From: Amphiscolops sp. MND2022 | Taxonomy: Eukaryota | Direction: 5' to 3' | NCBI GenBank assembly: GCA_964187785.1 | Contig: OZ076409.1 | Coordinates: 3,908,001 to 3,972,000 of the forward strand | DNA length: 64,000 nucleotides | Shown here: positions 33,441 to 57,624 of the stretch, in pieces | How the letters are laid out: every line of letters begins with the position of its first letter | How positions within the stretch are numbered: position 1 is the stretch's first letter | Notes under the pieces: generated by a model | Database searches by the model: none | What the model was told of the DNA's origin: nothing | What the model saw: only the letters and a program-made list of their open reading frames with translations | Made by a program: the position numbers and the translations under genes

Positions 33441-33899
33441 CTGTAAGAACATCCTATTAAATGATGATGCTAGGCAAGGTTCTAATTCACGTTATCAACA
33501 AAGTACTTGTCACACGTAGATTGGCCCTCGATTGGTATCAAAACGAACTCGACATAATGAACTGTCCCGGTTTCCACAATTTTTCAGTATAGATTGACTT
33601 GCTTAAAAAATGCAATGCGGAAAACAAGACCATATCTTTAAATATATGACGTGGAAACCAAACACAAATCCTAATAGATTGAGAAGTTCCAATCAAAGGG
33701 GTATACACATGATTGCGCGTTATCAAAGTGTCCTGCTTTCCAAAGTTTTTCAGTATAAATTGACTTGCTCAAAGAAGGCAATGCGGAAAACAAAGACACA
33801 TCTTTAAAAAGATGACCATCACGATACATATCCCCGCAAGCAAGTTCCCAGATCTTGCGACTTGCATTAATATCCAATCACAGTGAGTTATTATTATAA

Positions 33900-34085
33900 A
33901 TACAGTTTTACACTTTTCTCCTATTACACGAAGTCATAATTAGTTACACTGAAAGACTAAAATTCACTATTTGACTGGTTTACACTATTTTCCGGTCCAT
34001 AAATTTACACTAATTGACTGCATTACGCACTTTTGCAGTACTACGCACTTTGACTAAATTACGCAAATTTCCACTACGCATCAAT
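33900..34085. repeat. Left subterminal short-repeat array (tttgactaaattac[a/g]c-like); counterpart at ~57050-57420
   Basis: Multiple ttacac/ttacgca/tttgact motifs near both TIRs; both orientations occur at the right end. Confidence 0.65.
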
Positions 34086-35056
34086 TTCACTTGCTAGATG
34101 TTTCAGTTATTGTCGGAAAACATCGGTATTGATTCAATGATGATTAGTATTGAATTCTGAGTGATTTGAATTCAATCACGAGAATTGAAATCATAAACTT
34201 TCTATTTACAAATTTTGCTTACTGACATGATCAGTTAGCACTTAGTTCAAATGAGCTTAGGAAAACTAGGTTAGTTTTTTCTTCGAGGAAATCATATTTT
34301 TTATTTCAATTCATTTAATTTCAAAACTGTTAGAGGTTTGATGTTGAAACTAGTTTTGAAAGAGTTCAAAGGCAATGAATAGCTTTTGGAAAGAATAACA
34401 GAGTATTTGAAGTTTTGACAAGTAGTGATGTTTTATTTGTTTGGGGAAAACAGCCAGAAAGTCTGTGAAATGGATCGTCCTGAATGCAGAAGAAAACAAG
34501 CTTCATTCCCGAGAAAAGCTGAAACTCCCAGAAATACCCACATATCTCATCTTTAAGGTCGCATCTTCAAGGACCCACATAATGTAGGATTATCGAAAGA
34601 AAACGACCCCAGTTAACAAGGAAATTCAAAATTGAATCAACTCAGAAAGTTTCCAGGACTCAAAACTACTTTCTGCTATCTCTGATAAAAACAAAAGTGT
34701 TAATTTTGAACGATTTTATAATTTTATATTATTCCAATTTTAGTATCATTTCTCTATAAGTATTTTTATCCCCTGAGAGTGTGCTTGCAAGTTGTCGTGA
34801 TGTGCTTACGAGTAACCCAATGCGTTAATGTATTAGTTGAAGTGAAATAACATCATCATTGAATGATGATTGGTATTGACTTCTAAGTGATTCTAATCAC
34901 AAAAACGGGTTAAAATTTTGACTACTGTTATGATCAGAACTGGTTAATTTACCAAATCTTCAGCCAATTAAACTCCCGACTATATATTAATTCTCTTAAC
35001 GCAATTTGTTGAACAGTGCAAGATTATGAAGTACTGAAGTCCCATTGATTACAAGT

Positions 35057-35132
35057 GATCGATGGCGTAGGTTGTGGAATACAAGGCGGTCGATCTTTAG
35101 GACTGAGTTCGATTCCCGGTAGGGACGTTTTT
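35057..35132 (+). other. tRNA-derived (SINE-head-like) remnant
   Basis: A-box-like TGGCGTAGGTTG and B-box GAGTTCGATTCCC followed by a T-run; no convincing cloverleaf. Confidence 0.45.
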
Positions 35133-35798
35133 TAGAATTGAATTTTTTTTTCGTAATACAAAATCAAAAACTATCATATATGATATAAACGTATGGATAT
35201 AGTAGTAACACATTAAAATCCAGAAGAGCATTTTCGTTGCAGAGCATATTTGCTGTGATAATTTAGAAGCCACATACGATACGCACTTTTGCCTTGTGAA
35301 TTCACGCAGTCCTAAGCCGACTTTGGTGAAATGTTCTGGTTCTACTAAGGAAGAATTAACATCCTGAGAAATTCTGAGAAAAGATCCTCGAGTTAATGTT
35401 GGTATCCGTTTTTCGTTGAGAGTAAAAAAATGTTTTAGCGAACAAAAATCAATTTAGCCTTTCTCCTCATGACACCTTCAAGGGTTTCCCTATTCATTTT
35501 CTTCACCATAAAACATCATGTAACATCAAAGAAGTACAAATCAAAAAATGCAAGTAGGTAAATAATTTCAAACTTTTTTTACATTAAATGAACAATATTA
35601 AAAAAATGCAAGTATTTCAAAAATTTCAAATATTTTACATTGAATAAACAGAATTCAACCAAGGTCAGTTAATGCAGTTATAAATTAATTTGAATCGGTG
35701 TATAGACTATCATAACTAACACTTTGAAATGACTTTCGACAGGCATTCAAGGAGGAACAGTCAGACGCGTTCAAGTTGTCTTTTTATAAACGAAATTG

Positions 35799-36630
35799 GG
35801 TAGTCCTGACTAAGTAGGGTCCCTATAATGTAAGTGTGGTCCATGCATGTTTTGTCAGAATATTTATTATAACGTAGTCAGCTATGTTTACATACCTCTA
35901 GTGCCCTAAAATGCAGGAGCGAAGCGAAGCGGAGCGACGTGCCATATGGTAATGCCTCAATGTTGCTACTGGGCGAAAGGAGCAAAGCGACCGAGCTATA
36001 CAACAAAAATGCTAACCTCTTCAAATCAAGTTCCATACATTTTGGCTGTAACAGCACTGGTACTCCTGACCGGGCAACCTACAGTTCCTAAGTGTGGTCC
36101 CTACTAAATTTATGCAGTTGGCTTGAACACTCCTGACAAAGTGTGGTCCCTAACAGATTTAGAATGACCAACGTAAACCAAACTTTACATGTAGTTCAAA
36201 TCAGCAGAATTCAATTTACTAGCTTTTAGTGCTGTTACAGCCAATATGTATGAGACTTGAATTGAAAAGATTAGCAGATTTGTTCTATAGCTCAATCGCT
36301 TTGCTAAGTAGCAACATTGAGTCATGGCCATATGGCACATCGCTCCGCTCTTGCATTTAGGGCAGTAGGGGCATGTGAACATAGCTACCTTTTGATAATT
36401 ATTCCGACAAAATATGCAGGGACCACACTAACATTATAGGGACCACAATTAGTAACGAGAATCCGCTGGAGTGCCACAGCACTATAGGCTAGTAAATTGA
36501 ATTCTGCTGTTTTGTACTTGTAATGTTAACTTTACGTTGGCTATTCTAAATTTGCTAGGGACCAAACTTAGTGAGGAGTTTATAGGCCGGCTGCACAAAT
36601 TTTTAGGGACCACACTTAGTCAGGAGTACC
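35799..36630. mobile_element. Foldback/MITE-like element
   Basis: TIR GGTA(G/C)TCCTGACTAAGT..GGTCCCTA at both ends; internal inverted arms ~35820-36058 vs ~36229-36446 and ~36089-36178 vs ~36533-36620. Confidence 0.8.
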
Positions 36631-37251
36631 GGAAAATGTGCGCAAAGTTCGAGCCATATCGGTCGAGTCAAAAAAAGTTCTAATCAGCGTGACGCTTGTT
36701 TGTTGAAAACGCAACAGTCTAAGTCACTAAAAACAGTCAATTTAGGGAAGCCCTTGCATTTCAAATAAGTTAGGATTCCATTACATTTCATTACTGCATT
36801 AAATTTTTCCCAATCCCTGGACTCAACTAATCCAAGTTTAACTAAAATATTACGTGTTGCACGTGTAAGTGAGGTAGGAAATGACATGACGCTGAATGAG
36901 TTCGGAGGCACTGAATGGCACTGACTGAGGGAAGGTTGTCCGGATCGTTCACACATCAGCTATTCAGTGCACCAAGCTTGTATGCGCTGACTCATGATGG
37001 AGGCCAAAACACGATTCCTCTGGGACTTGAATTCTGAACACTTCAATTTCAGAATGATAATCTTTCAATAAATGATGATGATTTTGCTACTATCAAACGC
37101 TAGAATGAACGCTTTCAAAAAATGTATAAGTCGTAAGTAACATGACATCTGGTGACCAGATTTGATTCATGTTGAAATCAATTCTCAAATAAAATTTGCC
37201 AAATGTGGAATGGAATTTGAAGTAGACTTAAGATTAAATTTGTACGAATTA

Positions 37252-39898
37252 CCTGTCTCACGGGGAATGGATTAGCATTTCAATATCCTGATTGACTTCA
37301 TAGTCTCTGCCACGGAAGGGTGCTGGCACTCAACAACTTCAGGAGTTGGGATGTGCTGGTCGTACTGCCGCTCTTCGGTGGATGCTACCGAGGAAGGATA
37401 GCAAGGGGTAAGGTGCGAGAACGATCAGCTCATCATCCGTGATTGCGCTGTCAGGCATTCTCTCGCCGTCATTGTTTCTTTTTGTCCATTTTGCAGGATA
37501 GTATGCTCGGGACAGGTTCAAATAACGGGACAGGTCTGACAGGCATGCTACAGAGACTTGGTTGTCAAATCTGCTGTGGGTGAAAATCTGATTGTCAAGA
37601 TATTCCCTTGAGAAACGAGCGTAGCGCTGAAAAGTAAAAGATGTGAAAACTCAATATCTTTGTCATCTTGAATACTACTCTATCTTGAAATTTTTAATCA
37701 TTAAATATACAATTTACCCGTTACAAAATTGAAGACAATTTGTTCGGAACAACTATTCTCACCATTTGCACTTCCTGAAAATACTTTGCTGTCCTGAAAA
37801 ATTAGGTCTACTAACTGTCCGTCGGTCTCTTGGCTAATATATTGATTGAATAGCTCAATATTACTTTGCGTCGGTGCCACGAGGAAAAAGTTTTCTCACC
37901 CGTGAGTACAGTGTACATCACGGACGTTGCCGAGAAATCCTGGTGCCAAATGGTCTGGCATCCATCGTTCGACACGAGCAGGTAATTACGAGGTAGCACA
38001 AGAGAATGGTTCTGATCTGTCTCCAATGATCTCATCAACAAAGTGATTGATGGATGTTTGCTGAATCATCATCGGGACAGTGTACACTTTGTGTAAAAAA
38101 GCATGACTGAGATTCATCTCAAACCGATCATGACATTAAACAAAATGAGTTGATAACTTAAATGAGACTTATCTCAAACCGATCATGACAGTAAACAAAA
38201 TGAGTTGATAACCCAAATGAGGTTTACCTCACGCCGATCATGACAGTGAACAAAATGAGTTGATAACCTTATTTGAGATTTATCTCAAACCGATCATGAC
38301 AGTAAACAAAATGAGTTGATAACATAAATGAGGTTTATCTCAAACCGATCTTGTCAGTAAAAAAGAGTATTACCTTCGGTTTAAACTGAATGTCGATTAC
38401 ATTCAGAGCGTAGAAAGGCCTGCTGGTGTCATTCCGGAGGAACTCATCCCGCACAGCGTGAAGGGTCAAATTACGTGTCTAAAATTTGAAAAAAGATCTT
38501 TTTGCGGGACATGTATCGTAATGATAGACAACTCACACCCCTGAAGTTAACCATCAATTCGAAGATTTACTGTTTCGAGAGAATCACTCATTGGGGGTAT
38601 GGTGAGAATTGAGAGAAAATACTTGATCAAATTTACCTGTCCAAGTTTTGCTGACTTGACGTTGATGGTATGATCAGTATCTTGGAGATTCTGGGGCTGG
38701 CGAAGTTCAACCAATTGATCAAAAAATGGTTTGTTGGCTTGAGGCCATTTGATATGCCGACAATGATCAACCCCAATCTGCCAAACTATGGGGATACCAT
38801 TCCTTATCAACTGAGAGACTTTCCTCACTTGGTATTTTATGGGGCCATTCCATCTCGCTATGGGAAACTTCGGGGAACTTGAAGATACGTCCAAGCACAA
38901 TTGGAAGTATGCGGGGGAGCCAAAAACATCAGGGAGCGTGGCATGAAAGTCACTTGGAGCGAGGCACTCGCTTGATGAAAGGAAATCAGGTAGGTCATCA
39001 ACCTGTATAAGTAGAAAATGATAGTATAGTAATTGAGTATGATACATAGAGAGTTTAAACAGTTGAGTAAAATCAAATTGGGTTAAAATGATATTCAATC
39101 TTATGAACCATTTTGGAAAATAAATGATTTTGTGAGTCAATGATGTAATAAAATTACAACAATGATTTGATAGTGCAATAACTCACTTGTGCCTTGCAGT
39201 CCGGATGTTTGGAGAGGTGGATTTGCAGATCGTATGAATACTAGAAGACCTTGCCACATCCATAGCACTTGTGGCTTTGGCGTCTCTCTCCTCGTGCTGG
39301 TTTTGTAAATTACAATCATAGTTATCACTTCGAATCATGGAGTAACAGATTTGATCTGGTGTTCAAAACTAAATTTGTTTACTGGCATAATTAGATCACA
39401 TTATTAATTTGATCTGATGTTCAAAGTTTGAATAAAATTGTTTACTGGCATGATCAGATGAAATTAGCGATTTGATCTGATGTTTAAAACCTAAATATTT
39501 TGTTTACTGGAATGAACAAACCACTTGCTGTACTTGTACATGGTGATCGCTTCTTTTCTTTTGAGCTCACGTTGCTTCACACCGTATTTGGTCAGCTGAT
39601 GCTTCTTCATGAACTTGACCTGCATCAGTACTTGTCCACACTGCTGGCAAGATCGCTGCCTGATCTTCCACTCCTCCCTTGACTCACAAAGGCAGGTGGA
39701 CTTCTGGTGGCGCGTGACGTTGCTTTTCACTTTGGACGAGTAGTCACAAGTACCTTGTCCGCAGTGAAAAAGCTTGCTCGACGGAGAATATCGAGGTGTG
39801 GATGCTGCCGGGGTAGAATCGCAAGAGGATGCTGCTGAGGTTGAAGGGGCGAGAGAATTGTCATTTGAAGACATGATAACTAAAAAACATGGGACCAT
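37252..39898 (-). pseudogene. ZnF-JmjC gene copy 2 (C2H2-like fingers + KDM2/KDM7-type JmjC), multi-exon
   Basis: First exon FHCGQGTCDYSSKVKSNVTRHQKSTC...CQQCGQVLMQVKFMKKHQ. JmjC RNYLLVSNDGCQTIWHQDFSATSVMYTVLTGEKTF matches the KDM2/7 pattern YCLMS....TDFHxDFGGTSVWYHVLxGEKIF. Introns such as 38479-38636. The exon with the distal His was not found. Confidence 0.82.
38105..38365. repeat. ~55-bp tandem repeat (~4.5 copies), intronic
   Basis: tgagatttatctcaaaccgatcatgacagtaaacaaaatgagttgataac unit. Confidence 0.9.
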
Positions 39899-39929
39899 GA
39901 AGCCTTTCTCAATTTCTTTTTAAAAAATT

Positions 39930-40162
39930 GAAGTCTGACTGACTAAGTTAAAAACATGAAAAGGTCTGAGTGACCTTGTCAAAAACATGAGCACGTCTGA
40001 GTGACCAACTTAAAAACATGAAAAGGTCTGACTGACCATGTTAAAGTCTTGAATAGGTCGGAATGACCATGTCAAAAAAGGAATAGATCTTAGTGACCAT
40101 GTCAAAAACATGAGTAGATCTGAGTGACCATGACAAAAACATGAGTACGTCTGAATGACCAT
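39930..40162 (-). repeat. ~31-34-bp minisatellite (gacatggtcactcagacct core), inverted relative to 48400-48830 and 52160-52450
   Basis: Repeated aggtctgagtgaccatgtcaaaaa. Confidence 0.85.
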
Positions 40163-40520
40163 CAGGGTTTTGACATCGCTAATCTTCCGCTAGTCGCTAA
40201 ACCGCTAATTTGAAAAGTGCTATTTCGCTGAAAAGCTTTTTCCGCAAACTATTAAATGTTTAGCTTCAACTATGTTTCAAATTATTTTATTCGGATTTGG
40301 GAAGAGAAAAGACTAGAATTCTTTATTCTGCGCGTGTTTTACAAGGGTAAGAGTTGGAATTGTTCCGAATATCATTTTGAAACACCGTTTGTACACAGAA
40401 GAAATTTTGAATTTGGAGGGTCTGTTAGTTACCGCTAATTGAATCGCTAATGAAATCGCTGAAAAAATTCTGCGCGGTCGCTAATTCGCTAAATCGCTGA
40501 TTAGCGGTCCTAAAACTCTG
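40163..40520. mobile_element. hAT-like MITE
   Basis: Termini CAGGGTTTT...AAAACTCTG; 8-bp TSD atgaccat/gtgaccat; subterminal cgctaa repeats. Confidence 0.8.
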
Positions 40521-40629
40521 GTGACCATGTCAAAGATGAAATTAATAATACATATCATCAATGCATAAAAGCAAAATAAAGGTCAAGAAACATAAATAAC
40601 CCATCATTATTATACATGATAAAACAGAG

Positions 40630-41850
40630 TTAAACTGAAAATTTTTGATTCTTAGAGGTTTTGTCTTTTGCATGGCTCCGGTAACTAGACATTGTCTTAT
40701 AATTGACATTTGACACTAGAGCAACGATGACATATATGTTTTTGCTGAAATTGAGGCTGCAAGTTTTGTCGACTTTGACTTTCAGTGAAACGACACAAAC
40801 TGTCCCATCCGCAACTTTGTCCCATTCGTGTCCCAAAACAGTGTCCCAGACAGCTGTTGAGCATTGTCCTTCTTCAAACTGTAAGTGACTGAACCACCTT
40901 CTGCCGGAATACCAAACGCATGCATCAAAACGGAGCAGCTTGGAGCAATGTCTTTTCTGAAGTCCCAAATTCTAGATTGATCGCTATAAAAATGCATCAG
41001 CAAGTGCTTCAGGTTAGAGTACGCCCAGTACACTTGGCATAATTATTGTCAAAAGGAACATCTGGGGTACTATGAAGTGGCAGAGTCCGATCTTTCTTCA
41101 CGTAACAAAGAGGTACCGTTGATTTGAAGAAAGGGTCATCTTCTTTCTCAACTTCGATGACTAGTCTCGAGTCTTCGATGAAAATCCAAAACAACCTCAA
41201 CGAGAACTCAGTGCCCACCACGTTTACGATGTCTCCTTCAACTGCAACCCCATTTTTGATTGGGATGGAAACAAGCTCTACATGACCTTCAGGTTTCGTT
41301 AGGAAAGGTTCGGCTGGTCCTCCAGAAAGCACCTTCGCTAATTTCGCTTTCTTTCTAGAAGGCAGTTCAGTTCGGATGTTGCAATCGTCTTCGTCGTCTG
41401 TATCTTCTTCTGTTTCTTCTCGAAGCGTCACTCTCTTTTTCTTGTAAAGTTCTTCATGCGTTCCCGGTCGTAGTTGAAAGTAAGAAACTGTCGCAAGATC
41501 AATTCCATCTAGCTGGTCGTCAAAAAAATTCCCCTCTTCAATTGGGACAACTACAGGTGACACAAGCATCTGTTTTCTAAATGGATCATTTTTCATGACA
41601 TATCCCTCTTTCACGTTCTTCGTCAGTACTCCATCTCTTTCCATTGATTACGTGTAATGAATCAGATCATTTCTGACTCGCTTTTGTTTGAAGTAGCCAA
41701 GCACTTCAAGACTGAGGACCAACTCAATTCGCCTGGTGTAACTTGCGGCTGTGCCTTCGTTTTCTCTGATGGGCCATTTTTCAGGAAATTCGTGGAAGCG
41801 TGGTGGCGCTTCTAAAATTCCGTTAGCGTACTTGCTTGAGTAGTTCAGTC
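40630..41850 (-). pseudogene. Orphan protein gene, frameshifted, function unknown
   Basis: Overlapping minus-strand ORFs 41009-41644, 40782-41033 and 40630-40968 with protein-like composition, an acidic tract (EETEEDTDDEDD) and an NLS-like PSRKKAK. Confidence 0.6.
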
Positions 41851-42340
41851 ATTGTACGGTGTCCTGATAAAAGCGATCACCTGAATCTATTTTGATATAA
41901 TTGGAAAAAGAATATTGGTGGGAGTTTCCGAACGTGTAAGGCTTCATTTATTGCTAGTTTTATGAACAAAAAAATGCTCCCATTTTTTGTTTTCCTGGCG
42001 ATTTTCACCCACAGAAGCTATCACGGGGTTGAAAAATGTATCATGATACATGTATCAAGATATCATTTTGAAGTTTATAAATTTAAAACAACTTGAAGCT
42101 TGAAGCTCATACTACTACAATTTACAGTTTTTTCAAGAAAAAACTAAATCGCCAGATTCATATTGTTTGAGAAATTTTTCCGTCAAAAGTTTTCTGGAAA
42201 CAAAAATTTGTAAGTGGGTCAAAAATTAAAAAAACTAAAGAATGATGTTTTGGAAAATGCTCTCGACCAATGAAATGAGCGCGTGAGACATTGATCAGCA
42301 AAGGATATTTGTTTGTTTGCTTTCTTTCTGCATGATATCC

Positions 42341-47900: not shown

Positions 47901-48400
47901 ACACTTGTGAATGCCACCCTGGACGAAGAACATTCGGAAGACTTTAGAATTATAGACCAGATAATCAACCCCAATGCAATGTCCGAATGAAGCTCATGGT
48001 GATAAACGGAAAGAACGCTGTTTTTTTCATCGCAAAGAGAGACATAGACGCGTTGGAAGAAATATGCTTCGATTACAAAGACCCAAAATGCAAAGGCGAA
48101 TTTTGTTCGAGACCTACTGCTGTTACTGTGTCATCCGATCCACCAACCTCTGATCCGCCAACCTCTGACCCGCCAACCTCTGACCCGCCAGCCTCTGACC
48201 CACCAACCTCTGACCCGCCAACCTCTGACCCGCCAACCTCTGACCCGCCAACCTCTGACCCGCCAACCTCTGACCCACCATCCTCTGAACCTCTATCCGA
48301 CTCACCGACCGTTGAGCACGTCCTATTACCTGAGTCCCAAGAAACCTTCCCACCATTGTCCAACGACTCTACCATTTTTGACGATTCGCTAATTTATTAA
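45000..48400 (+). pseudogene. Multi-exon SET-domain gene (PR-Set7/SETD8-like SET at ~47740-48085), disrupted
   Basis: GRGVVATTPINKYEVVCNYH...FDAT...TFGRL*NY...CNVRMKLMVINGKNAVFFIAKRDIDALEEICFDY; in-frame TAG at 47945-47947. Likely upstream exons 45000-45302 and 45994-46919 (GT-AG); their linkage to the SET exon is inferred. Confidence 0.82.
48133..48290 (+). repeat. 15-bp coding tandem repeat (SDPPT x ~10)
   Basis: tctgacccgccaacc units in frame after the SET domain. Confidence 0.92.
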
Positions 48401-48830
48401 ATTTCAGACCTACAAACTTCTTTTTTGAAATCACTTGGTCATTCATCATTTAAATCACTCAGACCTACACTTTTTTGTCAGGGTCACTCAGACCTACTAG
48501 GTAGTACAAAGTCTTTTTTTGACATGGTCACAAAGACCTACAAATTTCTTTTTTGACGTGATCACTCCAACCAACATTTTTTTTTGAAATGGTCACTCAG
48601 CACTACAAATTTCTTTTTTGACATTGTCACTCAGACCTACTCTTTTTTGACAGGGTCACTCAGACCTACTAGGTAGTACTAGGTAGTACAAAGTCCTTTT
48701 TTGACATGGTCACTCAGACCTACAATTTTCTTTGTTGACGTGGTCACTCCAACCGACAAAAATATATTTTTGAAATATCAAATACTCAGCACTGCAAATC
48801 TCTTTTTTGACATTGTCACTTTCTTGACAT
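48400..48830 (+). repeat. ~34-bp minisatellite between SET and transposase genes
   Basis: ttttttgacatggtcactcagacctacaaatttc units. Confidence 0.88.
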
Positions 48831-48860
48831 GACGTTTCATCCCAACGTTTTAAATTTTAG

Positions 48861-51800
48861 TTGGACATGTTCAAGCAAAAACCCATAATTGTTGACGGGA
48901 AAGCAAATTATGTGAAGCTTGCCTTCCTGAACATTCTCTTCCCAACGATGTTCTCCCTACATCCCGATAAGAAATTTGGTCTCAAGAAAAATGGCCCACG
49001 AAAGATCAAAACATACATCGAGAAACATTTCAACGGGTCAAAAGTCCAGATCAACGATGTCTATAAGCCTAACGGGATCAAGTCCGAACGATCTGCTGCA
49101 CTGCGAGAAGATATATTTGATCTAATGATGATATCTGCCCCACCGTGCACACTTCCTTGGTCTCCCGAAAGACTACAATATTTGAGACATTTCTATCCAA
49201 CTTTGCCCCTTGCTTGTATCGACGCACAAGAATTGAAGACTGTTGATGTATCGATCCTGAACGCACCCGATGCGCCAGCCGACTTATCAATTCAATCAAC
49301 TTGAGAAGTCACAGGTCTGGTCTAATTCATTTAAACTTTTGATAGATTCAACCGAATCCCTGAATCAGTTCGCTCTGAGTTTGAGAGACTATCTCTACAA
49401 ACAAAAAGATGTTTCAAAAAGAAAGATTACTATTGTCTGTCGACTCCTCAGAATGCTACTTCCAAATCTTTTCAGTAAAGATAGAGACGAAACACAAATC
49501 AATATCCAATGCCTCCTTATGATGAACAAACATCAGGACCTTCTCGTGAAGATACGCCAGTTACTCCAGTGCCGATTCGTGAAAGCGACGATATTGCCAT
49601 CACGACTCGAACTTTCAATCATCAATAGACGGAATAATGATTTATTCAGAACTATGCTTGAACCATCGAGAACGCATACCGGCTTCCGTGTAAACCTTGT
49701 GAACTTTGTGAAGTTTGTTGCCCTTCATGTCTATGGAAAGAATTCCATCTCAGGATTGCGAATCGACATTTATACACATTTATACGACAGTTGATACAAT
49801 GTCACGAGGCAAACGAGATGTCGTGAGAATGGCCTTCCGCATCTTAGATACTGAAATTGAAACTGAACAATCTTCGACGCATGTTTTCAATTTCGCAGTT
49901 TTCGACGTAAGTTTTTGGCTTTTGTGTTTTCCAATTTTGCTTTCTGATTTGATCTTCAATGTGAATATATTTCTTAGAATTTTGCTTACTGACGTCATCT
50001 TCGGTTCATGTTTTGTTTTCATTTTACTTACTGGCATGATCTTCCAAAAGTTCTATGTTTCTTTAATTTTGCTTACTGGCATGATCTTCCATGTCGTGTA
50101 TGTTTTCACAGGGGAAAGATGTACGAGTCAATTTAGAGTATAACCTGACAATGGCGAACGTATTAGGACACAATGGGTGGTTATACAATGAAGCCAAAGC
50201 ATTGCATGAAGAAGGAGCCCTTTTGAATTGTTCAGGTGATTCGCCTTTCCAGCTGATATCACTGAAAGGAGTCAATAGTGACGTGTCATGCCTATCGAAA
50301 ATGTGCCTGTATGTTCCTGATCATCACATTTTGTCGCAAATTGTCCCAAAGCAGCAAGTGAAAAAGAACAGTGAAGCACACAAGACGGCGAAGGAAGGCA
50401 AGGATGCGATTCTTCCTTCCACGGTTGATCATTTCACTGGAAGACGAACTGTGCTGACTATTTATATCAACGAACAAATTCCATCGCTTATGTTTTTGAA
50501 GTCCACATTCAACACGTGCCCTAATGTTCTTCACATGATTATTCGATCTGTCGAAAGTGATTTGAAGCTACACGTCGATTCACTGATCATATCTAACATA
50601 CTTGCGATATCGAAATTAGAATGTAATATTACACAAAGAAATGTAAAGCCGTCTCGGTTCAGTTTTGAAATAGTTGATAGGATTTGTAAGGCTGTTACTT
50701 TGATCTTTCGAGACGCCGAAGTCATAATTTCGGACTGTACACGGACGAGCGAATATGGACGAATGGATACTCCTAAATTCGAAGAGGTATATTCATTCAA
50801 AGAGGCACATGTTTACAAGGCTGATCAGGCGAATGAAAATGCACCATATAATGTACTGATATCCTTGGTGGACGATTTAGAAACATCGTTTCCGAAAGGC
50901 ATTGGTATTTCACAACGGAAATTGGCCGATCTGCAATTTCAATCGCTTTACCAACTGCTGGAGCTACTGCGACAACGGGCGTTGACTGATCTCCAAAGTA
51001 GTAGAGACCTTTACGAGACATATTATCAAAGTACCATATGTCTATTTGGGGATCGTGCCTTGACTCCGTACAAACTGAAGATCGACATGCTGCTGAGGAT
51101 AATCGAATAGGGAGAGATTTTAGCCCCATTTAATTACATGACCGAAGGCACAGAAAAGAGTCACCATACAGCCAGCAAAGATTACAATTCGAGAACGATG
51201 CGCGACGGCTGTAACGATGCTTGGAATATGTCGTCAAAATATCTTGACATACGATTTTCACTCTTTCGAGCCATTGATTTGTCGTCGTCAAAGTCGAAGT
51301 TGCTTCAGCAGTGCCCCGACCAAATAACCAAGACGTATCTACAGATTTGCCAAGAGTCGATTGATGAGCCATCTCTTGACATCGGAAGGACAAGCGATAT
51401 TTTCAGATGCATACACTTCGTTGTTCTCGGAACATATGGGCACTTGAAAGAAACTCAAGGAAGTTTGGAGAGGAACATTTTGAAAAATGTTGGCATTGTT
51501 CTGAGCAATACAGACATCATTAATCGAAGCAAGTTTAGTTTCCTGAGCCACCATTACTCTGTCCTCCCGAATAGCAAGTGCATAGATACTTTGGTAAAAA
51601 ACACGCCCGGCACGAAGGAGACACTTACTACCAAAGCGGTAAATCATACCACCCTGGGCAATTGGATTTACTTGAAAGCCGAATTCATTACTGATTGTGT
51701 GAAGAAAAACATGTTGATGGATCCCAAAAACTACTTTTTTGAACTGGATGCCACAGCAAGGGCTAAATTGAGAAAAACACGTTTCCAGAACATTGCGCCG

Positions 51801-51920
51801 CAATTACAACGACAATCACAACCTCTCGGAGCTGGATCGATAACATACCATACGGCAATCAGAAAGTATAAAATCGCCCAGAAAGCATTGAAAAAGAAAT
51901 TCAACAGCGTCGATTATTGA
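48861..51920 (+). pseudogene. RAG1/Transib-like DDE transposase with C-terminal BRCT domain, copy 2
   Basis: Putative triad: LRIDIY..VDTMSRGKRDVVRMAF (D1, broken by a small duplication at ~49767-49790), LNCSGDSPF (D2), MTEGTEKSHH (E); also CPNVLHMIIRSVE and LTPYK. Phase-0 intron 49907-50111 (FD|GKD); stop at 51108-51110. BRCT IFRCIHFVVLG...WIYLKAEFITDCVKKNMLMDPKNY. Confidence 0.75.
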
Positions 51921-52159
51921 CCCTACAATTTTTAATGATTCACACTTTTGTTAAACGCTATAAATACAGCACTCTGATTAAGAAAACGTCCCCCGGGCGT
52001 ACTGTGTATGACGCTGAAAGTTTATTTAAACGTCCCTCAAAATTATCACCGCCAGGTAACAGCCTGTTTTTAAATGGTTGAATAATTAAAATAGACAATC
52101 AGTTTTTCACAAAGAGTCCTTCAAGACTATGAAAAAAATGAAAAGGCTCTTCCCATACA

Positions 52160-52452
52160 ATTTTTTTGACATGATCCTCAGACCCACAAACTTTTTTGAC
52201 AAGATCCCCCAGACCTACAAATTGTTTTTTGACATGGCCACTCATTCCTAAAAAATTCTTTTTGACATGATCACTCAAACCTACAAATTTCTTTTTTGAC
52301 ATGATCACTCAGACCTACAAAGTTCTTTTTTGACATGGTCATTCAGACCTAAAATTTTCTTTTCTGACACGGTCACTCAGACCTACAAATTTCTTTTTTG
52401 ACATGGTCACTCAGACCTACAAATTTCTTTTTTGACATGGTCACTCAGCACT
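52160..52452 (+). repeat. ~34-bp minisatellite downstream of the transposase
   Basis: Same unit as 48400-48830, ~8-9 copies. Confidence 0.9.
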
Positions 52453-53540
52453 CCATATTTCTTGTATATATTGTAGAATCGATGGAATAATTACACTCAA
52501 GTTTTTTTTACTGGCATGATCAGACGACAAGTATAACTTTGTTTACCGGCATGATCAGAACACAACAATTATAGTAATTTTGGGACCATGTCATTTATTT
52601 CCCCGAGGTACACTTTGAAATTGAATTTTGTTCGCGGTAAAAACTAATGAGCAACTACTTGTTACTTACTGGCAATCGATGTAATGGATAGGATTATTTC
52701 ATCAATTATTTTATTGGATCAAAATTTCAGCGCAAACGATGTCGACATAATGGTATTTGAACATTTTGTCTTATTACTCCCCGCTGCAGTTTGGGGGATA
52801 GATGACATGGTCCTAATTATGTGTACTGGCATGATCATAATATACAAAAACCAGAAATGAAAAACAACGAAATCATTACGTACCAAATAGCATAAGAGCA
52901 AATGACATCAAAACAAAAATAGTTTTAAATAACCTAAAATTCAAATTAGTTTCAAATAACAAAAAACCGACTATCCGGTTAAACAATCGACATCAGAAAC
53001 TTTCACCTGTAGTTTCCACGCTTTTTTGAGTGATTATTTTGAATTGTGAATTACTTTGACCACTAAATCATTCTCGTAAACAATTTTTTTTGTTTGGTGA
53101 AACTCATCATGAAAACTAAAAATGTTTACGAGAAATTTTTTGTTTATATAGAAATCTAGAAATTTGAAATTAATTTCAAATGACAAACATGAAATGACTT
53201 CATTTTTATGTGATTTGACACTAATTTCGACTTTGTTATTTGCCAAATGTTATATGGGAATTCACCAACAAAAATTCATAAAAGAATTCTGTCTTCCTTT
53301 TTGGTTGTGCTTTGGATAAAATTGATCGTCGGTCTGGATAAATTGGCCAATACGGTGTCCATTCAGTAAACAGAAACCACTGCATGCAGAAATCAAAATT
53401 ACATGTAGACTCTAATTTCAGAAGAACTGCGCTAATTAATGGCGTGTAATAATGCTTGGAACACTAGACCCAGCCATAACAATTTAAAACGCTACCTTTC
53501 CACTAAAATGAAATGAATTTAATAATTCAGATGAGTTGAT

Positions 53541-53806
53541 GGATCTTTTCTGTTAATTCCCCTCATCGATTTGTCCTACCCCAACACCATATGTTATTTG
53601 CTCTTATTTTGAATCTTTTTTGATAATCCTCCCGAGTATTTTGATAAAGTTAAGCGGTTTTGAGAAGTTATTTTTGATTTGATAGTAACAACCAATCAAA
53701 TTGCAGTATTTCTAATTCTAACTGCAACTGAAACTTATCGCTGATAATGGTGGGAATTAAATTTTCTGCGCTTGCTGTGGGGGATTGTAATTAACAGAAA
53801 AGATCC
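53541..53806. mobile_element. MITE with perfect 18-bp TIR (related copies ~59580-59790 and ~60933-61078)
   Basis: GGATCTTTTCTGTTAATT ... AATTAACAGAAAAGATCC. Confidence 0.8.
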
Positions 53807-54095
53807 CTTACTTTATTAAGGAATCAACTGAAAAATCTCGTCATCTCAGATTAGCTTCGCATAACAAGTTGCGTTTTCAAACCAATTGTCAATTTGGTGA
53901 ATTGTGGCTTTTGATTAATTTCCAAAGAAAGTCAACTACCTCCACGAGAGAAAACAACTATCAAGCCAGATGAAAGAAATGCTTTACTTTTGTTAACTGG
54001 CGTGATTTGATTACTGGTGTGATCTGCGAATAAATTCACATTCAAATGAAGCATCAAAAATCAAACCACGATTGGTCCCAAAATGTTAACATGTG

Positions 54096-54213
54096 AAAAA
54101 ATCAGTAATAATCAGCAATCAGTGAAGATTGAATGAAATAGAGTCAATTGAAAAATTTCATTTGACTCTAATTCATTCAACAATCACTGATTGCTAATCT
54201 TTACTGATTTTTT
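54096..54213. repeat. ~118-bp imperfect palindrome
   Basis: aaaaaatcagtaa..agcaatcagtga..ttgaatgaa.tagagtcaa / ttgactcta.ttcattcaa..tcactgattgct..ttactgatttttt. Confidence 0.8.
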
Positions 54214-55372
54214 ACTATGATTTCCTAAATATCCTACGGAAAGTTTATTGCGTTAATATTTCACTGTTGTTGCCAACTTTTATCCAGCTGCTTTAAAGAT
54301 TCATGAAAGTTTTGGCGGCAATTTCTTGCCGCGAAGTTCTGAAATATCCAATTTGATATGCATCAGTTCTAAAATCAGATGAGTAGTTTCAAGATTTACC
54401 ACCGGAACTTTACTGAATTTTCTAGGTTTTATAAAAATTCACCCTGCATGCAGGTCTGCAGCATGCGAAAATTTTCTGCAGTCTCAACTAGGAAATTCAT
54501 TATATGTTTTTCAATAGATTTATCTAGATTTTCAAAAGTATATATAAGTGTCCAATGCCTCAGCATAATGGGGACACAGGCTCAGATGATAATTCCCGCG
54601 GGCATTCGAAGCTAAAAGTGTTTAATAGTACCTCCTGATCGATCCCCGCCAACAACCCACTGGCTAGGCGATTCTATGCAGACAACCCTCATGAAGATTC
54701 CCTTCATATCAGAAGACAATGTAGTTGTTCCTCTTAACGACGATAGGAAGAGCCCATATCGAAGTATCACTGCGCCACTGCATCCCTTTTGATGTCCAAT
54801 TTTCGATCTTATCAAACTCGGATAGATTCAGATAAAAATAATGGGTGAATTTCACATGAAATGCATTCATATGGAACGAATTTTTTAAACCTAAGTTCAG
54901 TAATTGAAAGTAAATTCAAGTTATTTGAATTTGGTTTACTGGCATGGTGAGGATTTTTCATTGTGAAAATTCACATTCAAACGATAAATGAATGAATTTT
55001 GATTACCGGTATGATCAGATTGAATTTGAATTCAGATGAATAAATGTGAGTTTACTCGCAGATCTTACCAGTAATCAAATCATATCTTGCCCGTTCTTCA
55101 AAAGAACTTCCTTCGTTTTGAATTCAAATCACTTAGAGTTCAATACTAATCACCATTCAATACTGATGTTCTATTGATGTTCAATACTGGCAATAACTAA
55201 ACCATCAAGCCTTGAAGTGGAACATTACATCAACACACGCATGTTAATACATGTAAAATACTACGTTGCCATGTTTAACAAATTAGGTGAAATCAATCTG
55301 ATCATACCAGTGATCAAAATTCAATTATTCGCTTCCGATGCGAATGTAAGTTCAGATGATTAAAAAAACTTC

Positions 55373-55875
55373 CCTTTCTATCGTTGTGAAGGGAAATAAC
55401 AACAATCAACAACTAATTCATCTTTTATTCACATCACAAAGGATTGCAGTGGTTTTGCAATTGTGCCTTCCTGTCGCTGTGAAAGGGAATAACAACGATA
55501 AACAACTAATTCATCTTTTTTTCAAAACAAAAAGGGATGCATTGGATCTTCAATTGTGCCTTCCTATCGCTGTGAAAGGGAATAACAACGCTCAAGAACT
55601 GATTCATCTTTTTTTCAAATCAAAAAGGATTGCAGTGGTTTTTCAATTGTGCCTTCCTATCGCTGTGAAAGGGAATAACAACGATCAAGAACTGATTCAT
55701 CTTTTTTCAAATCAAAAAGGATTGCAGTGGTTTTTCAATTGTGCCTTCATATCGCTGTGGAAGGGAATAACAACAATCAAGAACTGATTTCTTTTTTCAC
55801 ATCAAAAAGGGATACAGTAGCGCAGTGGACCTCCAATTATGCCTTCCAATTATGCCTTCCGATCGCTGTGAAGTG
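55373..55875. repeat. 93-bp tandem repeat (~5 copies)
   Basis: cttcctatcgctgtgaaagggaataacaac... at 55467, 55560 and 55653. Confidence 0.9.
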
Positions 55876-57624
55876 GAACGATGTCTTTTGCCAAATCGAT
55901 ATGGGGGTAATACAGAGTGGTCTGTATAGAGTCACCGAGCAGTGCGTATGTTAGGGAATCGATCCGGCGGTAGACAACGGTGCTAACTTCACTTCATACT
56001 CAAGTGAAATATTAACTGCGCCACCATCCCCAACATGCCGTTGCATTGAAAACATGTTTACACTCACACAAGTTTATCTTTCGTTTCTCTGACTGTCCAA
56101 CTTGAATTGTATAATACTTTGTAATCGAATTGTACAATATTTTTAACAGTTCTAAGTAACGATTGCATTTCAAACAGCATTACAATCACGCGTGTAATAT
56201 TAGAATGCTTCACTCTAATGCGTTAATGTTTCAGTAATCACAAAAAGCCAAACCAAAAAATTTATGGTTAAAATGTTTGCATGCTGTCACGATCAGTTTG
56301 ATTAAGTGTTGTCAAAGTCAGTTTCGTAGCTGAAACGTATCTATTTGGTTGCTGAAGGTGCTATTTGATTTGTGTGTGTGTGTGTGGTTGGGGCTGTGGG
56401 TCATTCGTATCAAGGTGTAACGGGTTGGTGAGGGGTGCATATGAAGTGTATACATGCATATAAATAGTATCACTGTAGCTATTCAAAAAATTGGTTTTCA
56501 AGCCTTTTAGCTTCAAATAACATAAAACTGAAATTACTTTCATTTACCATAAAAAGAAAAGTGATAACCCGGTAAAAATTTCTATTTGTAATTTCTAGAC
56601 CACTTAAACTTTCTCGTCAACAATTTTTGTTTTGTGAAACTGTTTTCCATCAACTTTGTCGGGCACAAATAACTGCTTAGATTACAAATCTCAACGAAAA
56701 ATTACTTTTGCCCAGTATAATTTAGTTTTAAAGAGGCTCTCAGTTAGGGGATCACATAGTGTCGCCCATAACAAGACCCACGCCGAGAACGTGGCCTCTG
56801 AAGGGTCTCAAAACTTGTAAATACATCTAACTAACAATACTTCAACCCTGTGTTGTGTAGGAAAATGAACACATGGTCCAGTTTATTTTCAAACATTTTG
56901 CTTACTGGTAGATCAGTAAGCAATTAGTTCAAATCATTAAACTCTAAATTGACATAATTAGTTAGTTACACTAAATGGCTAGATTCTTTTGCGTGCAGGT
57001 GTCATCCAATGTAAACTTTGGTGTATGTATGTATGTGTTAATGTAAGTATGCGGTAATTGTTTAATCGCGTAATTCAGTCAAAGTTAATGTGTAATTTAG
57101 TCAAAGTTATTAAACGCCAAGCAACTATTCAATGTAAAATGATGTGTTGGAAGAAATTATTAAATTGCCGTAAACTAGTCAAATTTTGACTAAATTACAC
57201 TTTTCGATAGTTTTTTAAATGTAGACTCAATAAAAGTGAAATTTAATCGAACTTTGACTAACTTACACCTTACTAAATTAGCTTGTTAATTTTGACTGTT
57301 TTACACCATTTACTAACTACGCATTTTGACTGGAATTCACCGCGTTCGCATTACACTTTGCTGCACCACTACACTTATGGATTACTACAGTCTTTGACAA
57401 ATTTACAGTAATTGAATATTTTACCCAGAAAACTATTTACACCAAGTGATAACTTTCCACTTTTGCGGGACATGTATCGTAATGACGTGGAAACCAAACA
57501 CATACACTAATACAATGCAGAACTTCACTTGAAAGGGTAAACCCATATTTTGTGTAATGGAACGACTAAATTTGTTTTTCAATAAGTGCTAAACATGGTT
57601 CAAACGAGTGAAAATCTTTTTTAC

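What the first reader, a model, noticed from the sequence alone, without database searches (positions are those of the whole stretch)
33817..57484. Candidate ~23.7 kb DNA transposon carrying a histone methyltransferase and a histone demethylase
Seen: TIRs matching at ~20/23 positions, a 2-bp TSD (AC), subterminal repeat arrays at both ends, and two independent signs of insertion (the split 166-bp repeat and the split JmjC-1 gene both rejoin when the element is removed). Inside lie ZnF-JmjC (-), an orphan gene (-), SET (+) and DDE transposase-BRCT (+), in divergent arrangement. Known: 2-bp TSDs with subterminal arrays occur in CMC-group (EnSpm/Mirage) elements, and chromatin-modifier cargo is reported for some transposons (e.g. 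TET/JBP with KDZ elements). Inference: a large transposon family encoding its own chromatin writer and eraser. I do not recall a described element with this gene set.
Basis: partly seen in the sequence, partly recalled or inferred. Interest (0 to 1): 0.95.

Follow-up and report, generated by a model that had tools for sequence, protein, structure and literature searches.

The report
Giant transposon carrying histone-modifier genes
This stretch is a decayed 23.7-kb copy of a family of very large jumping genes that carry their own histone methyltransferase and histone demethylase genes, and a younger branch of the family still looks able to move in this genome.

Summary
Window 33817-57484 (23,668 bp) is one insertion of a terminal-inverted-repeat (TIR) DNA transposon. 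Both ends are sharp boundaries of a high-copy repeat. All 14 paired copies checked carry a 2-bp target-site duplication (TSD). A second full-length copy is collinear from end to end.

The element holds four genes:
- a ~1,000-aa transposase whose model matches the RAG1/Transib core (Z 18.4) and ends in a BRCT domain;
- a ~800-aa protein ending in a KMT5A-like SET domain;
- a zinc-finger protein with a KDM2/KDM7-like JmjC domain;
- a ~430-aa protein of no known family.

The same four genes occur in a second subfamily ("B", 28.1 kb). It has about 100 near-identical copies with open frames, and its JmjC gene sits in a different position. Between subfamilies only the exons remain similar, so the cargo has been kept by selection.

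The window copy itself is dead: stops in SET and transposase, two frameshifts, and half of JmjC deleted. It sits inside the JmjC gene of an older related element.

The transposase matches no Pfam transposase family and lacks the motif that defines CMC/Transib. Giant transposons with chromatin or DNA modifiers are already reported in algae and fungi, so this is a new variant of a known kind. What the cargo does was not tested.

The parts
33815..33816 (.). Left copy of the 2-bp target-site duplication (AC)
   Evidence: The same dinucleotide stands at 57485-57486.
33817..33839 (+). Left terminal inverted repeat (CATCACGATACATATCCCCGCAA)
   Evidence: All 40 scored genome matches start at this base. 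It agrees at 20 of 23 positions with the right end.
33971..34064 (+). Left subterminal array: 3 copies of TTGACT-NNW-TTAC(A/G)C
   Evidence: 12 matches in the window against 2.9 expected.
36972..39754 (-). Zinc-finger/JmjC gene, broken. Two C2H2-like finger exons, the N-terminal exon and exon A (frameshift, 2 stops) are present. Exon B, which holds the second iron-binding His, is deleted.
   Evidence: tblastn and tblastx against the intact subfamily-B gene. The B exons match KDM2A at E 1.2e-9 and 2.5e-5. About 690 bp present in the C3 copy is missing between 37777 and 37798.
39933..40162 (-). Intergenic tandem array, 31-34-bp unit, 7.5 copies
   Evidence: The same unit recurs at 48515-48669 and 52162-52463 in the opposite orientation.
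40654..41869 (-). Gene of unknown family ('orphan', full length about 430 aa); 2 stops in its first exon here
   Evidence: A full-length homologue is P0156 (431 aa). No Pfam match.
46078..48256 (+). X-SET gene: a conserved N-terminal region X plus a C-terminal SET domain; in-frame stop at 47945-47947 inside the SET domain
   Evidence: Pfam SET on both halves. X and SET are one protein in homologue P0175. Closest solved relative is KMT5A/SETD8.
48515..48669 (+). Intergenic tandem array, 34-bp unit, 4.8 copies
49035..51911 (+). Transposase-BRCT gene, broken. Exon 1 is read in three frames (two frameshifts). The intron is about 49907-50111. Exon 2 has a stop at 51108-51110. BRCT lies at the 3' end.
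   Evidence: The fold of homologue P0003 matches the RAG1 core at Z 18.4 and BRCT at Z about 11.
52162..52463 (+). Tandem array after the transposase gene, 34-bp unit, 9.1 copies
57068..57306 (.). Right subterminal array: 6 copies of the 15-bp motif, 3 on each strand
57462..57484 (-). Right terminal inverted repeat (ends ...GCGGGACATGTATCGTAATG)
   Evidence: 39 of 40 scored genome matches end at this base.
57485..57486 (.). Right copy of the 2-bp target-site duplication (AC)
32654..33330 (-). Flank: JmjC exons B (32654-32920) and A (33142-33330) of an older related element, cut off from their upstream exon by the insertion
   Evidence: Exon B is 36% identical to the subfamily-B exon (E 7e-23) and matches KDM2A at E 0.0027.
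57622..57923 (-). Flank: N-terminal exon of the same older JmjC gene, on the other side of the insertion
   Evidence: With the insertion removed, this exon lies 623 bp from exon A; the spacing inside the element's own gene is 541 bp.
33563..33816 (+). Flank: 166-bp tandem repeat interrupted by the insertion; it continues at 57487

Best explanation
**What it is.** Window 33817-57484 is a dead copy of a large cut-and-paste DNA transposon. The family has 13-14-bp perfect termini (CATTACGATACA.. / ..TGTATCGTAATG), arrays of a 15-bp motif just inside both ends, and a 2-bp target duplication.

**How it moves.**
- The transposase is a ~1,000-1,100-aa DDE enzyme. Its catalytic core is built like RAG1/Transib, and a BRCT domain follows the core.
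- The candidate catalytic residues, numbered on homologue P0003, are D370, D454 and E744 or E747.
- It presumably binds the termini and subterminal motifs, excises the element, and re-inserts it with a 2-base stagger.

**What else it carries.** Three further genes have been kept by selection through the split into subfamilies:
- a protein ending in a KMT5A-like SET domain;
- a C2H2 zinc-finger protein with a KDM2/KDM7-type JmjC domain. The iron-binding H-x-D...H residues are intact in live copies;
- a protein of unknown fold.

**Inferred, not shown.**
- The JmjC and SET proteins act on the chromatin of the element itself or of its target, for example by removing repressive lysine methylation. 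This would keep the element transcribed and mobile.
- The zinc fingers or the unknown protein supply the targeting.
- The BRCT domain links transposition to break repair.

**History of this copy.** It inserted into an intron-like stretch of the JmjC gene of an older related element. It then decayed, while the 28.1-kb sister subfamily B has spread recently.
For: **A real transposon**
- Sharp shared ends.
- 14 of 14 checked copies have 2-bp TSDs.
- Short internally deleted derivatives of 0.67-4.6 kb carry the same two ends.
- The C3 copy is collinear end to end at 80-93% identity.
- The insertion site is rebuilt to the base by the 166-bp repeat and by the flanking gene.

**Transposase**
- The AlphaFold model of homologue P0003 has pLDDT 82 and pTM 0.74.
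- It matches the RAG1 core at Z 18.4, rmsd 4.0 A, over 411 residues, and Transib at Z 16.5 over 400 residues.
- It matches BRCT domains at Z about 11.
- D370, D374, D454, E744 and E747 are kept in 28/28 to 37/37 aligned homologues.
- The intron has canonical GT..AG sites at the point where P0003 reads straight through.

**Cargo genes**
- SET: Pfam E 1e-9 in subfamily B; KMT5A E 4.7e-6.
- JmjC: KDM2A E 1.2e-9 and 2.5e-5 for two consecutive exons, with H-T-D and the second His aligned.

**Cargo belongs to the element**
- 11/11 close copies have SET and 10/11 have the unknown gene.
- Of the first 20 subfamily-B transposase places, 20 have the JmjC exon, 16 the SET gene and 14 the unknown gene at the expected distance and strand. 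Each list scores only 118-150 of 563-1,189 candidates.

**Selection.** Between subfamilies only the exons remain alignable. Synonymous differences are saturated (pS 0.74-0.87), while pN is 0.18-0.38 for all four genes.

**Recent activity of subfamily B**
- Copies are 96-99% identical over the parts searched.
- 78 of 105 rows show the same 617-aa open frame.
- 99 of 150 scored JmjC exons are full length and open.
Against: - No transcript, no enzyme activity and no transposition event was observed. No RNA run could be listed.
- The SET domain has N-Y where the cofactor-binding N-H motif normally stands, in both subfamilies. It may therefore be inactive or have changed function.
- The catalytic triad was read from conservation and overall superposition, not from a residue-by-residue structural alignment.
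- The transposase matches no Pfam transposase model in 0 of 51 homologues.
- JmjC was examined in only two copies of the window's own subfamily (the window and C3).
- Whether the gene set travels together in other species could not be tested. The seven environmental contigs found are 1.7-5.9 kb and hold only the transposase.
- Subfamily B's transposase gene model is not complete at its 5' end.
Confidence: 0.87

Rival explanations
1. The element is a transposon, but SET, JmjC and the unknown gene are passengers. They would be host genes picked up by chance, as in Pack-MULEs, with no role in the element's life.
For: - Gene capture by large DNA transposons is common (passages read).
- The SET domain carries an unusual N-Y motif.
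- The genes are broken in the window copy.
Against: - All three genes are kept in two subfamilies so diverged that non-coding DNA no longer aligns.
- pN is far below saturated pS, as for the transposase itself.
- The JmjC gene has moved within the element and was still kept.
- An older third element in the flank also pairs a transposase with this JmjC type.
- About 100 young copies keep the frames open.
Confidence: 0.07
2. The cargo proteins act on something other than the element's chromatin. Possible targets are the transposase or repair proteins, or host chromatin at large. In that case the 'writer and eraser of its own chromatin' picture is wrong even though the genes are functional.
For: - KMT5A-type and JmjC enzymes have known non-histone substrates (from general knowledge, not tested here).
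- No targeting evidence was obtained.
- The model of the unknown protein failed.
Against: - The JmjC protein carries C2H2-type fingers.
- The element carries ordered arrays of short motifs at its ends and between its genes. These would suit sequence-specific recruitment, but this is circumstantial only.
Confidence: 0.25
3. The 23.7 kb is not one mobile unit. It would be a chance pile-up of unrelated sequences between two independent short elements that share these ends.
For: Most copies of the ends belong to short derivatives of 0.67-4.6 kb, and the interior holds other repeats.
Against: - The C3 copy is collinear over the whole length, with its own TA duplication.
- The AC duplication and the exact rejoining of the flanks span the whole 23.7 kb.
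- The 28.1-kb subfamily has the same termini type and the same genes.
Confidence: 0.02

Closest known systems
Transib transposons and RAG1
   Same: The predicted transposase core superposes on the RAG1 core (Z 18.4, 411 residues, model 275-794 on RAG1 459-1006) and on Helicoverpa Transib (Z 16.5). These stand well above the other rows listed. It is a cut-and-paste element with TIRs.
   Different: - TSD is 2 bp, not 5 bp.
- Termini are CATTACG.., not CACAGTG-like.
- The C(2)C and H(3-4)H zinc motifs are not conserved.
- No Pfam RAG1 family matches.
- It has a C-terminal BRCT domain and three extra genes, and the elements are 24-28 kb long.
CMC group (CACTA/EnSpm, Mirage, Chapaev), especially Mirage
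   Same: 2-bp TSD, 5'-CA..TG-3' termini, subterminal repeat arrays, and more than one gene per element. The group's features are taken from passages of PMC12730594. That Mirage has 2-bp TSDs and that CACTA elements have subterminal motifs bound by a second protein is recalled, not from a call.
   Different: [quoted passage not shown] No hit to any Pfam transposase model. Sequence relationship to Repbase Mirage or EnSpm could not be tested.
Giant Plavaka/EnSpm elements of red algae with accessory genes PAG1-3 (bioRxiv 10.1101/2025.02.11.637652, section read)
   Same: - Giant DNA transposons with a transposase plus three conserved accessory genes.
- One accessory gene carries a SET domain, one a 2OG-dependent oxygenase with a DNA-binding part, and one is unknown.
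- Tandem arrays lie beside the accessory genes.
- The proposed role is modification of the element's own chromatin or DNA.
   Different: - There the SET protein also has an N6-adenine DNA methylase domain. None was found here.
- There the oxygenase has a ParB-like domain. Here it is a KDM2/7-type JmjC with C2H2 fingers.
- Sizes are 17-19 kb there against 24-28 kb here.
- No BRCT transposase is reported in the passages read.
Fungal KDZ, Plavaka and other transposons carrying TET/JBP dioxygenases (PMC12730594, passages read)
   Same: DNA transposons that keep an epigenetic 'eraser' of the 2OG-oxygenase class as cargo. PlavakaB has 2-3-bp TSDs and CATCA..TGATG ends, which resemble these termini.
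   Different: That cargo acts on methylcytosine, not on methyl-lysine. No SET partner is described for them in the passages read.
HarbingerS and MuDR families of Phytophthora carrying SET genes (cited in PMC12730594; the original Repbase Reports were not seen)
   Same: DNA transposons with a SET histone methyltransferase-type gene.
   Different: The transposase superfamilies are unrelated, and no demethylase partner is mentioned.
KDM2A / PHF8 / KDM7 and KMT5A (SETD8) host enzymes
   Same: They are the closest solved relatives of the cargo domains.
   Different: The cargo proteins are only about 30-40% identical over the catalytic domains. They lack the PHD, CXXC and F-box parts and carry C2H2 fingers instead. 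The SET domain has N-Y for N-H.

Membership tests
Class II TIR (cut-and-paste) DNA transposon | Terminal inverted repeats at sharp, shared boundaries in many dispersed copies | tested here: met
   40/40 left-end matches start at base 1 and 39/40 right-end matches stop at base 300. The window TIR agrees at 20/23.
Class II TIR (cut-and-paste) DNA transposon | Target-site duplication of fixed length and variable sequence | tested here: met
   14 of 14 paired copies have a 2-bp TSD.
Class II TIR (cut-and-paste) DNA transposon | Encodes a DDE (RNase H-fold) transposase | tested here: met
   Fold match to RAG1, Transib, P element and Hermes transposases. Acidic residues D370, D454 and E744/E747 are conserved. 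The window copy itself is broken.
Class II TIR (cut-and-paste) DNA transposon | Observed excision or new insertion | not testable with these tools
   Only indirect evidence: 96-99% identity among subfamily-B copies.
Transib superfamily / RAG1-like | RAG1-core-like architecture of the transposase | tested here: met
   Z 18.4, rmsd 4.0 A, 411 aligned residues.
Transib superfamily / RAG1-like | 5-bp target-site duplication | tested here: not met
   2 bp in 14 of 14 copies. The 5-bp figure for Transib is recalled.
Transib superfamily / RAG1-like | [quoted passage not shown] | tested here: not met
   No such conserved pairs in the 51-sequence alignment. Conserved instead are C523 (23/34), H528, H741 and H751. 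The motif definition comes from PMC12730594.
Transib superfamily / RAG1-like | Match to the Pfam RAG1 domain families | tested here: not met
   0 of 51 homologues match at E <= 0.01. Only a weak lead from the protein atlas, score 0.75.
CMC group (EnSpm/CACTA-Mirage-Chapaev) | TSD of 2-4 bp and 5'-CA..TG-3' termini | tested here: met
   2-bp TSD; termini CAT..ATG.
CMC group (EnSpm/CACTA-Mirage-Chapaev) | C(2)C / H(3-4)H motif in the transposase | tested here: not met
CMC group (EnSpm/CACTA-Mirage-Chapaev) | Sequence similarity to reference CMC transposases | tested here: inconclusive
   No Pfam transposase model hit. Repbase and Dfam references were not available.
Plavaka | 2-3-bp TSD with CATCA..TGATG (PlavakaB) termini | tested here: inconclusive
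   The TSD fits. The family terminus is CATTACG; only this window copy reads CATCACG.
Plavaka | Transposase groups with Plavaka in a phylogeny | not testable with these tools
   No reference sequences were at hand.
JmjC lysine demethylases, KDM2/KDM7 branch | JmjC domain recognisable by sequence | tested here: met
   Subfamily-B exons match KDM2A, PHF8 and KDM7 at E 1.2e-9 and 2.5e-5. The per-exon Pfam JmjC/Cupin_8 scores fall below the cut-off. The window copy keeps only the first half.
JmjC lysine demethylases, KDM2/KDM7 branch | Iron-binding H-x-D ... H | tested here: met
   H-T-D and I-H align to the KDM2A positions in the subfamily-B copy. In the window the exon with the second His is deleted.
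JmjC lysine demethylases, KDM2/KDM7 branch | Demethylase activity on histone lysines | not testable with these tools
SET-domain lysine methyltransferases (KMT5A-like) | SET domain above the Pfam cut-off | tested here: met
   39.1 bits in subfamily B, 43.9 bits in P0175, and 22.8 and 24.4 bits for the two window halves against a cut-off of 22.4.
SET-domain lysine methyltransferases (KMT5A-like) | Cofactor-binding N-H motif and catalytic Tyr in E-L-x-x-D-Y | tested here: inconclusive
   N-Y replaces N-H in both subfamilies, while ..EELCFDY is kept. The roles of these residues are recalled.
BRCT domain | BRCT fold at the transposase C-terminus | tested here: met
   Z about 11 to 53BP1, BRCA1, MDC1 and XRCC1 BRCT domains over model residues 835-995. 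Pfam BRCT_2 matches 9 of 51 homologues. P0009 passes the BRCT cut-off. The window scores only 17.4 bits.

The most novel reading that the evidence does not exclude
This would be an undescribed lineage of RAG1/Transib-like transposons. Its marks are a BRCT-fused transposase lacking the RAG1-type zinc motifs, a 2-bp TSD and a size of 24-28 kb. It would have kept, through long evolution, a matched pair of methyl-lysine enzymes (KMT5A-like SET and KDM2/7-like JmjC with its own zinc fingers) that it aims at its own chromatin to escape silencing. Its 28-kb branch would still be transposing in this genome.
Probability: 0.35. Interest if true: 0.88.

Novelty: new variant of a known kind. Interest (0 to 1): 0.72.

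Why it matters
**Chromatin.** Hosts silence transposons largely through histone and DNA methylation. An element that carries both a methyl-lysine writer-type and an eraser-type gene, and keeps them under selection, would be a natural case of a parasite editing the marks used against it. So far such cargo is described mainly for DNA-modifying enzymes in fungi and algae. About 100 near-identical 28-kb copies with open frames offer material for direct tests: which marks, which targets, and what effect on mobility.

**RAG1 relatives.** The transposase widens the known range of RAG1/Transib-like enzymes. It has the same core architecture but a different target stagger, no canonical zinc motif, and a BRCT domain that hints at a built-in link to break repair. 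This bears on how the RAG recombinase lineage diversified.

**Annotation.** These genes are present in public protein sets only as unnamed predictions. They could be mistaken for host chromatin regulators.

Tried and rejected
- **Pfam on window frames.** Pfam on all stop-to-stop frames of 45 aa or more in 32.8-42.5 kb and 57.4-58.5 kb gave no JmjC hit. The domain became visible only through the intact subfamily-B exons.
- **Genome-wide Pfam JmjC scan.** It listed other JmjC loci but none in this family; only 150 of 775 candidates were scored.
- **RNA evidence.** No RNA holder was listed for the 10-kb subfamily-B stretch.
- **Unknown protein.** The AlphaFold model of P0156 with 22 sequences was poor (pLDDT 42) and was not searched. 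Pfam found nothing.
- **Protein atlas.** Only a weak lead, score 0.75, to a cluster of which 16-18% of members carry RAG1 families.
- **Cross-species gene order.**
  - The search for related loci with the 51-sequence alignment did not complete because no stretch was conserved enough.
  - A 12-sequence alignment found 7 environmental contigs of 1.7-5.9 kb with the transposase only.
- **Other ORFs of the subfamily-B element.** 13 frames of 90 aa or more gave no credible Pfam family.
- **Earlier scan notes.** Nothing was on record.
- **Literature.** Searches listed no TIR transposon described with both a SET and a JmjC gene, and none of the listed papers mentioned BRCT alongside CACTA or Mirage transposases. 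Repbase Reports and most subscription journals are outside that library.
- **Virus or Polinton-like reading.** Rejected. No capsid, polymerase or integrase-type gene was seen, and the element has TIRs with a TSD.
- **Simple Mirage or Transib member.** Rejected. A defining motif or the TSD length is not met.

Full report
**1. The observation**

The window lies in a 1.07-Gb eukaryotic assembly.

- The first 300 bases match 40 scored places elsewhere in the genome at 92-100% identity, out of 455 first-look candidates. All 40 begin at query base 1.
- The last 300 bases match 40 scored places out of 473 candidates. 39 of them end at query base 300.
- The left terminus CATCACGATACATATCCCCGCAA and the reverse complement of the right terminus agree at 20 of 23 positions with one gap. 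Other copies read CATTACG, so the C at position 4 is a private change.
- The dinucleotide AC flanks both ends.
- In one search every pair of ends that could be matched, 12 of 12, has a 2-bp duplication of differing sequence: GT, TG, TG, AT, AC, TA, CA, AG, AT, AG, CA, TC. A chance match has probability 1/16 each.
- A 15-bp motif, TTGACT-NNW-TTAC(A/G)C, occurs 12 times in the window against 2.9 expected. None of 100 shuffles reached 12. Three copies lie within 250 bp of the left end and six within 420 bp of the right end.

**2. Proof of insertion**

- The last 88 bases of the left flank (33729-33816) align to 33563-33650, one 166-bp period upstream. The sequence that follows in that earlier unit aligns with the right flank starting exactly at 57487. 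The first 16 bases are identical, and the score is 33 against 9 for a control taken from inside the element.
- A minus-strand JmjC gene is split in the same way. Its exons B and A lie at 32654-32920 and 33142-33330, and its N-terminal exon lies at 57622-57923.
- With the element removed, the N-terminal exon and exon A would be 623 bp apart. The spacing in the element's own copy of this gene type is 541 bp.
- The flanking exon B is 36% identical to the subfamily-B exon (E 7e-23) and weakly matches KDM2A (E 0.0027).
- A fragment of a related transposase lies at 29960-30231.
- So the element sits inside an older element of the same broad family.

**3. One mobile unit, in a family**

- Many copies of the ends belong to short derivatives of 0.67-4.6 kb that keep both termini.
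- A second long copy on contig C3 (25,037 bp, TSD TA) is collinear with the window element from the first base to the last, at 80-93% identity.
- The long open frame at 50085-51107 has 942 first-look candidates. Of the 118 scored, one is the window, 12 are 84-89% identical ("subfamily A") and 105 are 67-71% identical ("subfamily B").
- 78 of the 105 subfamily-B rows list the same 617-aa open frame.
- SET has 563 candidates and the unknown gene 575. Both lie beside the transposase in the same order and orientation. This holds for 11 of 11 other subfamily-A copies for SET and 10 of 11 for the unknown gene.
- I checked the first 20 subfamily-B transposase places against the lists:

| Gene beside the subfamily-B transposase | Places with a match | Position |
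|---|---|---|
| JmjC exon | 20 of 20 | 3.2-3.6 kb downstream, same strand |
| SET | 16 of 20 | about 3.1-3.4 kb upstream |
| Unknown gene | 14 of 20 | opposite strand |

- The lists are capped at 150 scored places, so a miss is not an absence.
- One subfamily-B copy on contig C13 was read in full. It is 28,124 bp long with termini CATTACGATACAC.. / ..GTGTATCGTAATG and TSD TA.
- Other subfamily-B copies are 96-99% identical to it over the 16.5 kb searched.

**4. The genes**

*(a) Transposase*
- Two main exons are joined at a canonical GT..AG intron, at the point where a 1,104-aa public homologue (P0003) reads straight through.
- An exhaustive HMMER search found 349 cluster representatives at E <= 0.001. 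The ten looked up were either unnamed or called "hypothetical protein".
- None of 51 aligned homologues matches any Pfam transposase model. 9 of 51 match BRCT_2.
- The AlphaFold model has pLDDT 82 and pTM 0.74.
- It superposes on the RAG1 core at Z 18.4 (rmsd 4.0 A, 411 residues, model 275-794 on RAG1 459-1006) and on Transib at Z 16.5. Residues 835-995 superpose on BRCT domains at Z about 11.
- Foldseek also lists the P element and Hermes transposases, more weakly.
- D370, D374, D454, D525, H528, E535, H741, E744, E747 and H751 are kept in 28/28 to 38/38 aligned sequences.
- The C(2)C and H(3-4)H pairs that define CMC/Transib are not conserved.

*(b) X-SET*
- The SET domain scores 39.1 bits in subfamily B. 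Its closest solved relative is KMT5A/SETD8 (E 4.7e-6).
- The upstream frame "X" and SET are one 796-aa protein in homologue P0175.
- Both subfamilies have N-Y in place of the usual N-H.

*(c) Zinc-finger JmjC*
- In subfamily B the gene lies downstream of the transposase on the same strand. In subfamily A it lies at the left end on the opposite strand.
- Two consecutive subfamily-B exons match KDM2A residues 162-213 (E 1.2e-9) and 229-298 (E 2.5e-5). H-T-D and the second His are aligned.
- Upstream exons carry C2H2-like fingers.

*(d) The unknown gene*
- It encodes about 430 aa and has 22 public homologues, none with a Pfam domain. Its structural model failed.

**5. State of the window copy**

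- Transposase exon 1 is read in three frames, so it has two frameshifts.
- Transposase exon 2 has a stop at 51108-51110.
- SET has a stop at 47945-47947, inside the domain.
- JmjC exon A has a frameshift and two stops.
- About 690 bp holding JmjC exon B is missing between 37777 and 37798, compared with the C3 copy.
- The later JmjC exons are largely gone.
- This copy cannot be autonomous.

**6. Selection on the cargo**

- Between subfamilies A and B, nucleotide similarity survives only over the exons.
- On codon alignments, synonymous differences are saturated (pS 0.74-0.87). Non-synonymous differences are 0.18-0.38 for transposase, SET, JmjC and the unknown gene alike.
- The JmjC gene has changed place and strand within the element and was still kept.
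- These points argue that all four genes serve the element.

**7. Likely mechanism**

*Shown*
- A TIR element with a 2-bp target stagger.
- A RAG1/Transib-like DDE transposase with BRCT.
- Conserved SET and JmjC cargo with intact metal-binding residues in young copies.
- Ordered motif arrays at the ends and between genes: 34-bp units at 39933-40162, 48515-48669 and 52162-52463.

*Inferred*
- The transposase recognises the termini and subterminal motifs.
- BRCT recruits repair factors.
- The zinc-finger JmjC protein, and perhaps the unknown protein, are drawn to the element's arrays. Together with the SET protein they reset lysine methylation over the element and so counter silencing.
- The N-Y change leaves SET activity open.

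**8. Comparison with what is known**

- By fold, the nearest relatives are RAG1 and Transib. By TSD, CA..TG ends and subterminal repeats, the element resembles the CMC group, with Mirage for the 2-bp TSD. A defining motif of both is missing, and Transib's 5-bp TSD is not met.
[quoted passage not shown] They note PlavakaB ends CATCA..TGATG with 2-3-bp TSDs, and cite SET genes in HarbingerS and MuDR of Phytophthora.
- A section of bioRxiv 10.1101/2025.02.11.637652 describes 17-19-kb Plavaka elements of a red alga with three accessory genes. One is an N6-methylase-SET protein and one a ParB-2OG-oxygenase protein.
- Passages of PMC12477816 describe giant KDZ, EnSpm and Sola-1 elements with accessory genes in a brown alga.
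- Passages of PMC11244446 describe KDM4-like JmjC genes in endogenous giant viruses.
- The kind of thing is therefore known. The particular enzymes, the BRCT-bearing RAG1-like transposase and the gene set were not found in eight literature searches. Those searches do not cover Repbase Reports.

**9. Verdict**

The finding is real and its interpretation is right in substance. The window copy is a relic, and the interesting object is the family, above all the young 28-kb subfamily. It is best rated a new variant of a known kind. Three questions remain open: its exact place among RAG1/Transib/CMC relatives, the activity and targets of the cargo enzymes, and whether the gene set travels together in other species.

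Noticed in passing
window 29499-33381 and 57622-58481: An older, decayed element of the same broad family surrounds the insertion. Transposase fragments lie on the + strand (29960-30231). A zinc-finger/JmjC gene lies on the - strand, convergent with the transposase. This is a third gene arrangement, besides those of subfamilies A and B.
   Followed up: partly
window 39933-40162, 48515-48669, 52162-52463: Tandem arrays of a 31-34-bp unit (TTTTTTGACATGGTCACTCAGACCTACAAATTTC) sit between the genes. Each has the same polarity relative to the neighbouring genes' direction. The arrays are also present in the C3 copy. Their role is unknown; they could be binding sites, terminators or promoters.
   Followed up: partly
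window 1-4000 and 22000-30000: These stretches have strongly negative GC skew (-0.30 to -0.47) with AT skew near zero. Long low-complexity frames lie on the + strand. The cause was not examined.
   Followed up: no
own genome, e.g. C1:6292791, C7:8351160, C6:37289557, C4:9273891: Two further sets of near-identical single-exon JmjC frames (207 aa and 206 aa) are scattered over many contigs and are not next to this family's genes. They may belong to other mobile families that carry JmjC.
   Followed up: no
window 48143-48288: A 15-bp tandem repeat of 9.7 copies encodes (S/T)DPPT repeats just after the SET domain.
   Followed up: no
window 55373-55810: A 93-bp tandem array of 4.8 copies at 89% match lies inside the element's right arm.
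   Followed up: no
own genome C8:37.51-37.58 Mb (L005, L012, L059): This cluster holds two subfamily-A gene sets in opposite orientation plus several loose ends of the family. It may be nested or rearranged copies.
   Followed up: no
public proteins P0175 and P0156: The clusters of the X-SET protein and of the unknown protein list members on contigs of the same six lengths (129,196 to 854,100 bp). This suggests the two genes are also linked in another public assembly.
   Followed up: partly
L066 (C13 copy, oriented positions 5980-6530): About 550 bp is private to this subfamily-B copy. Other copies join 5979 directly to 6531.
   Followed up: no
L063 (C3 copy, about 1.1-1.5 kb inside its left end): A run of N sits inside the C3 copy. 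It is either an assembly gap or a withheld stretch.
   Followed up: no
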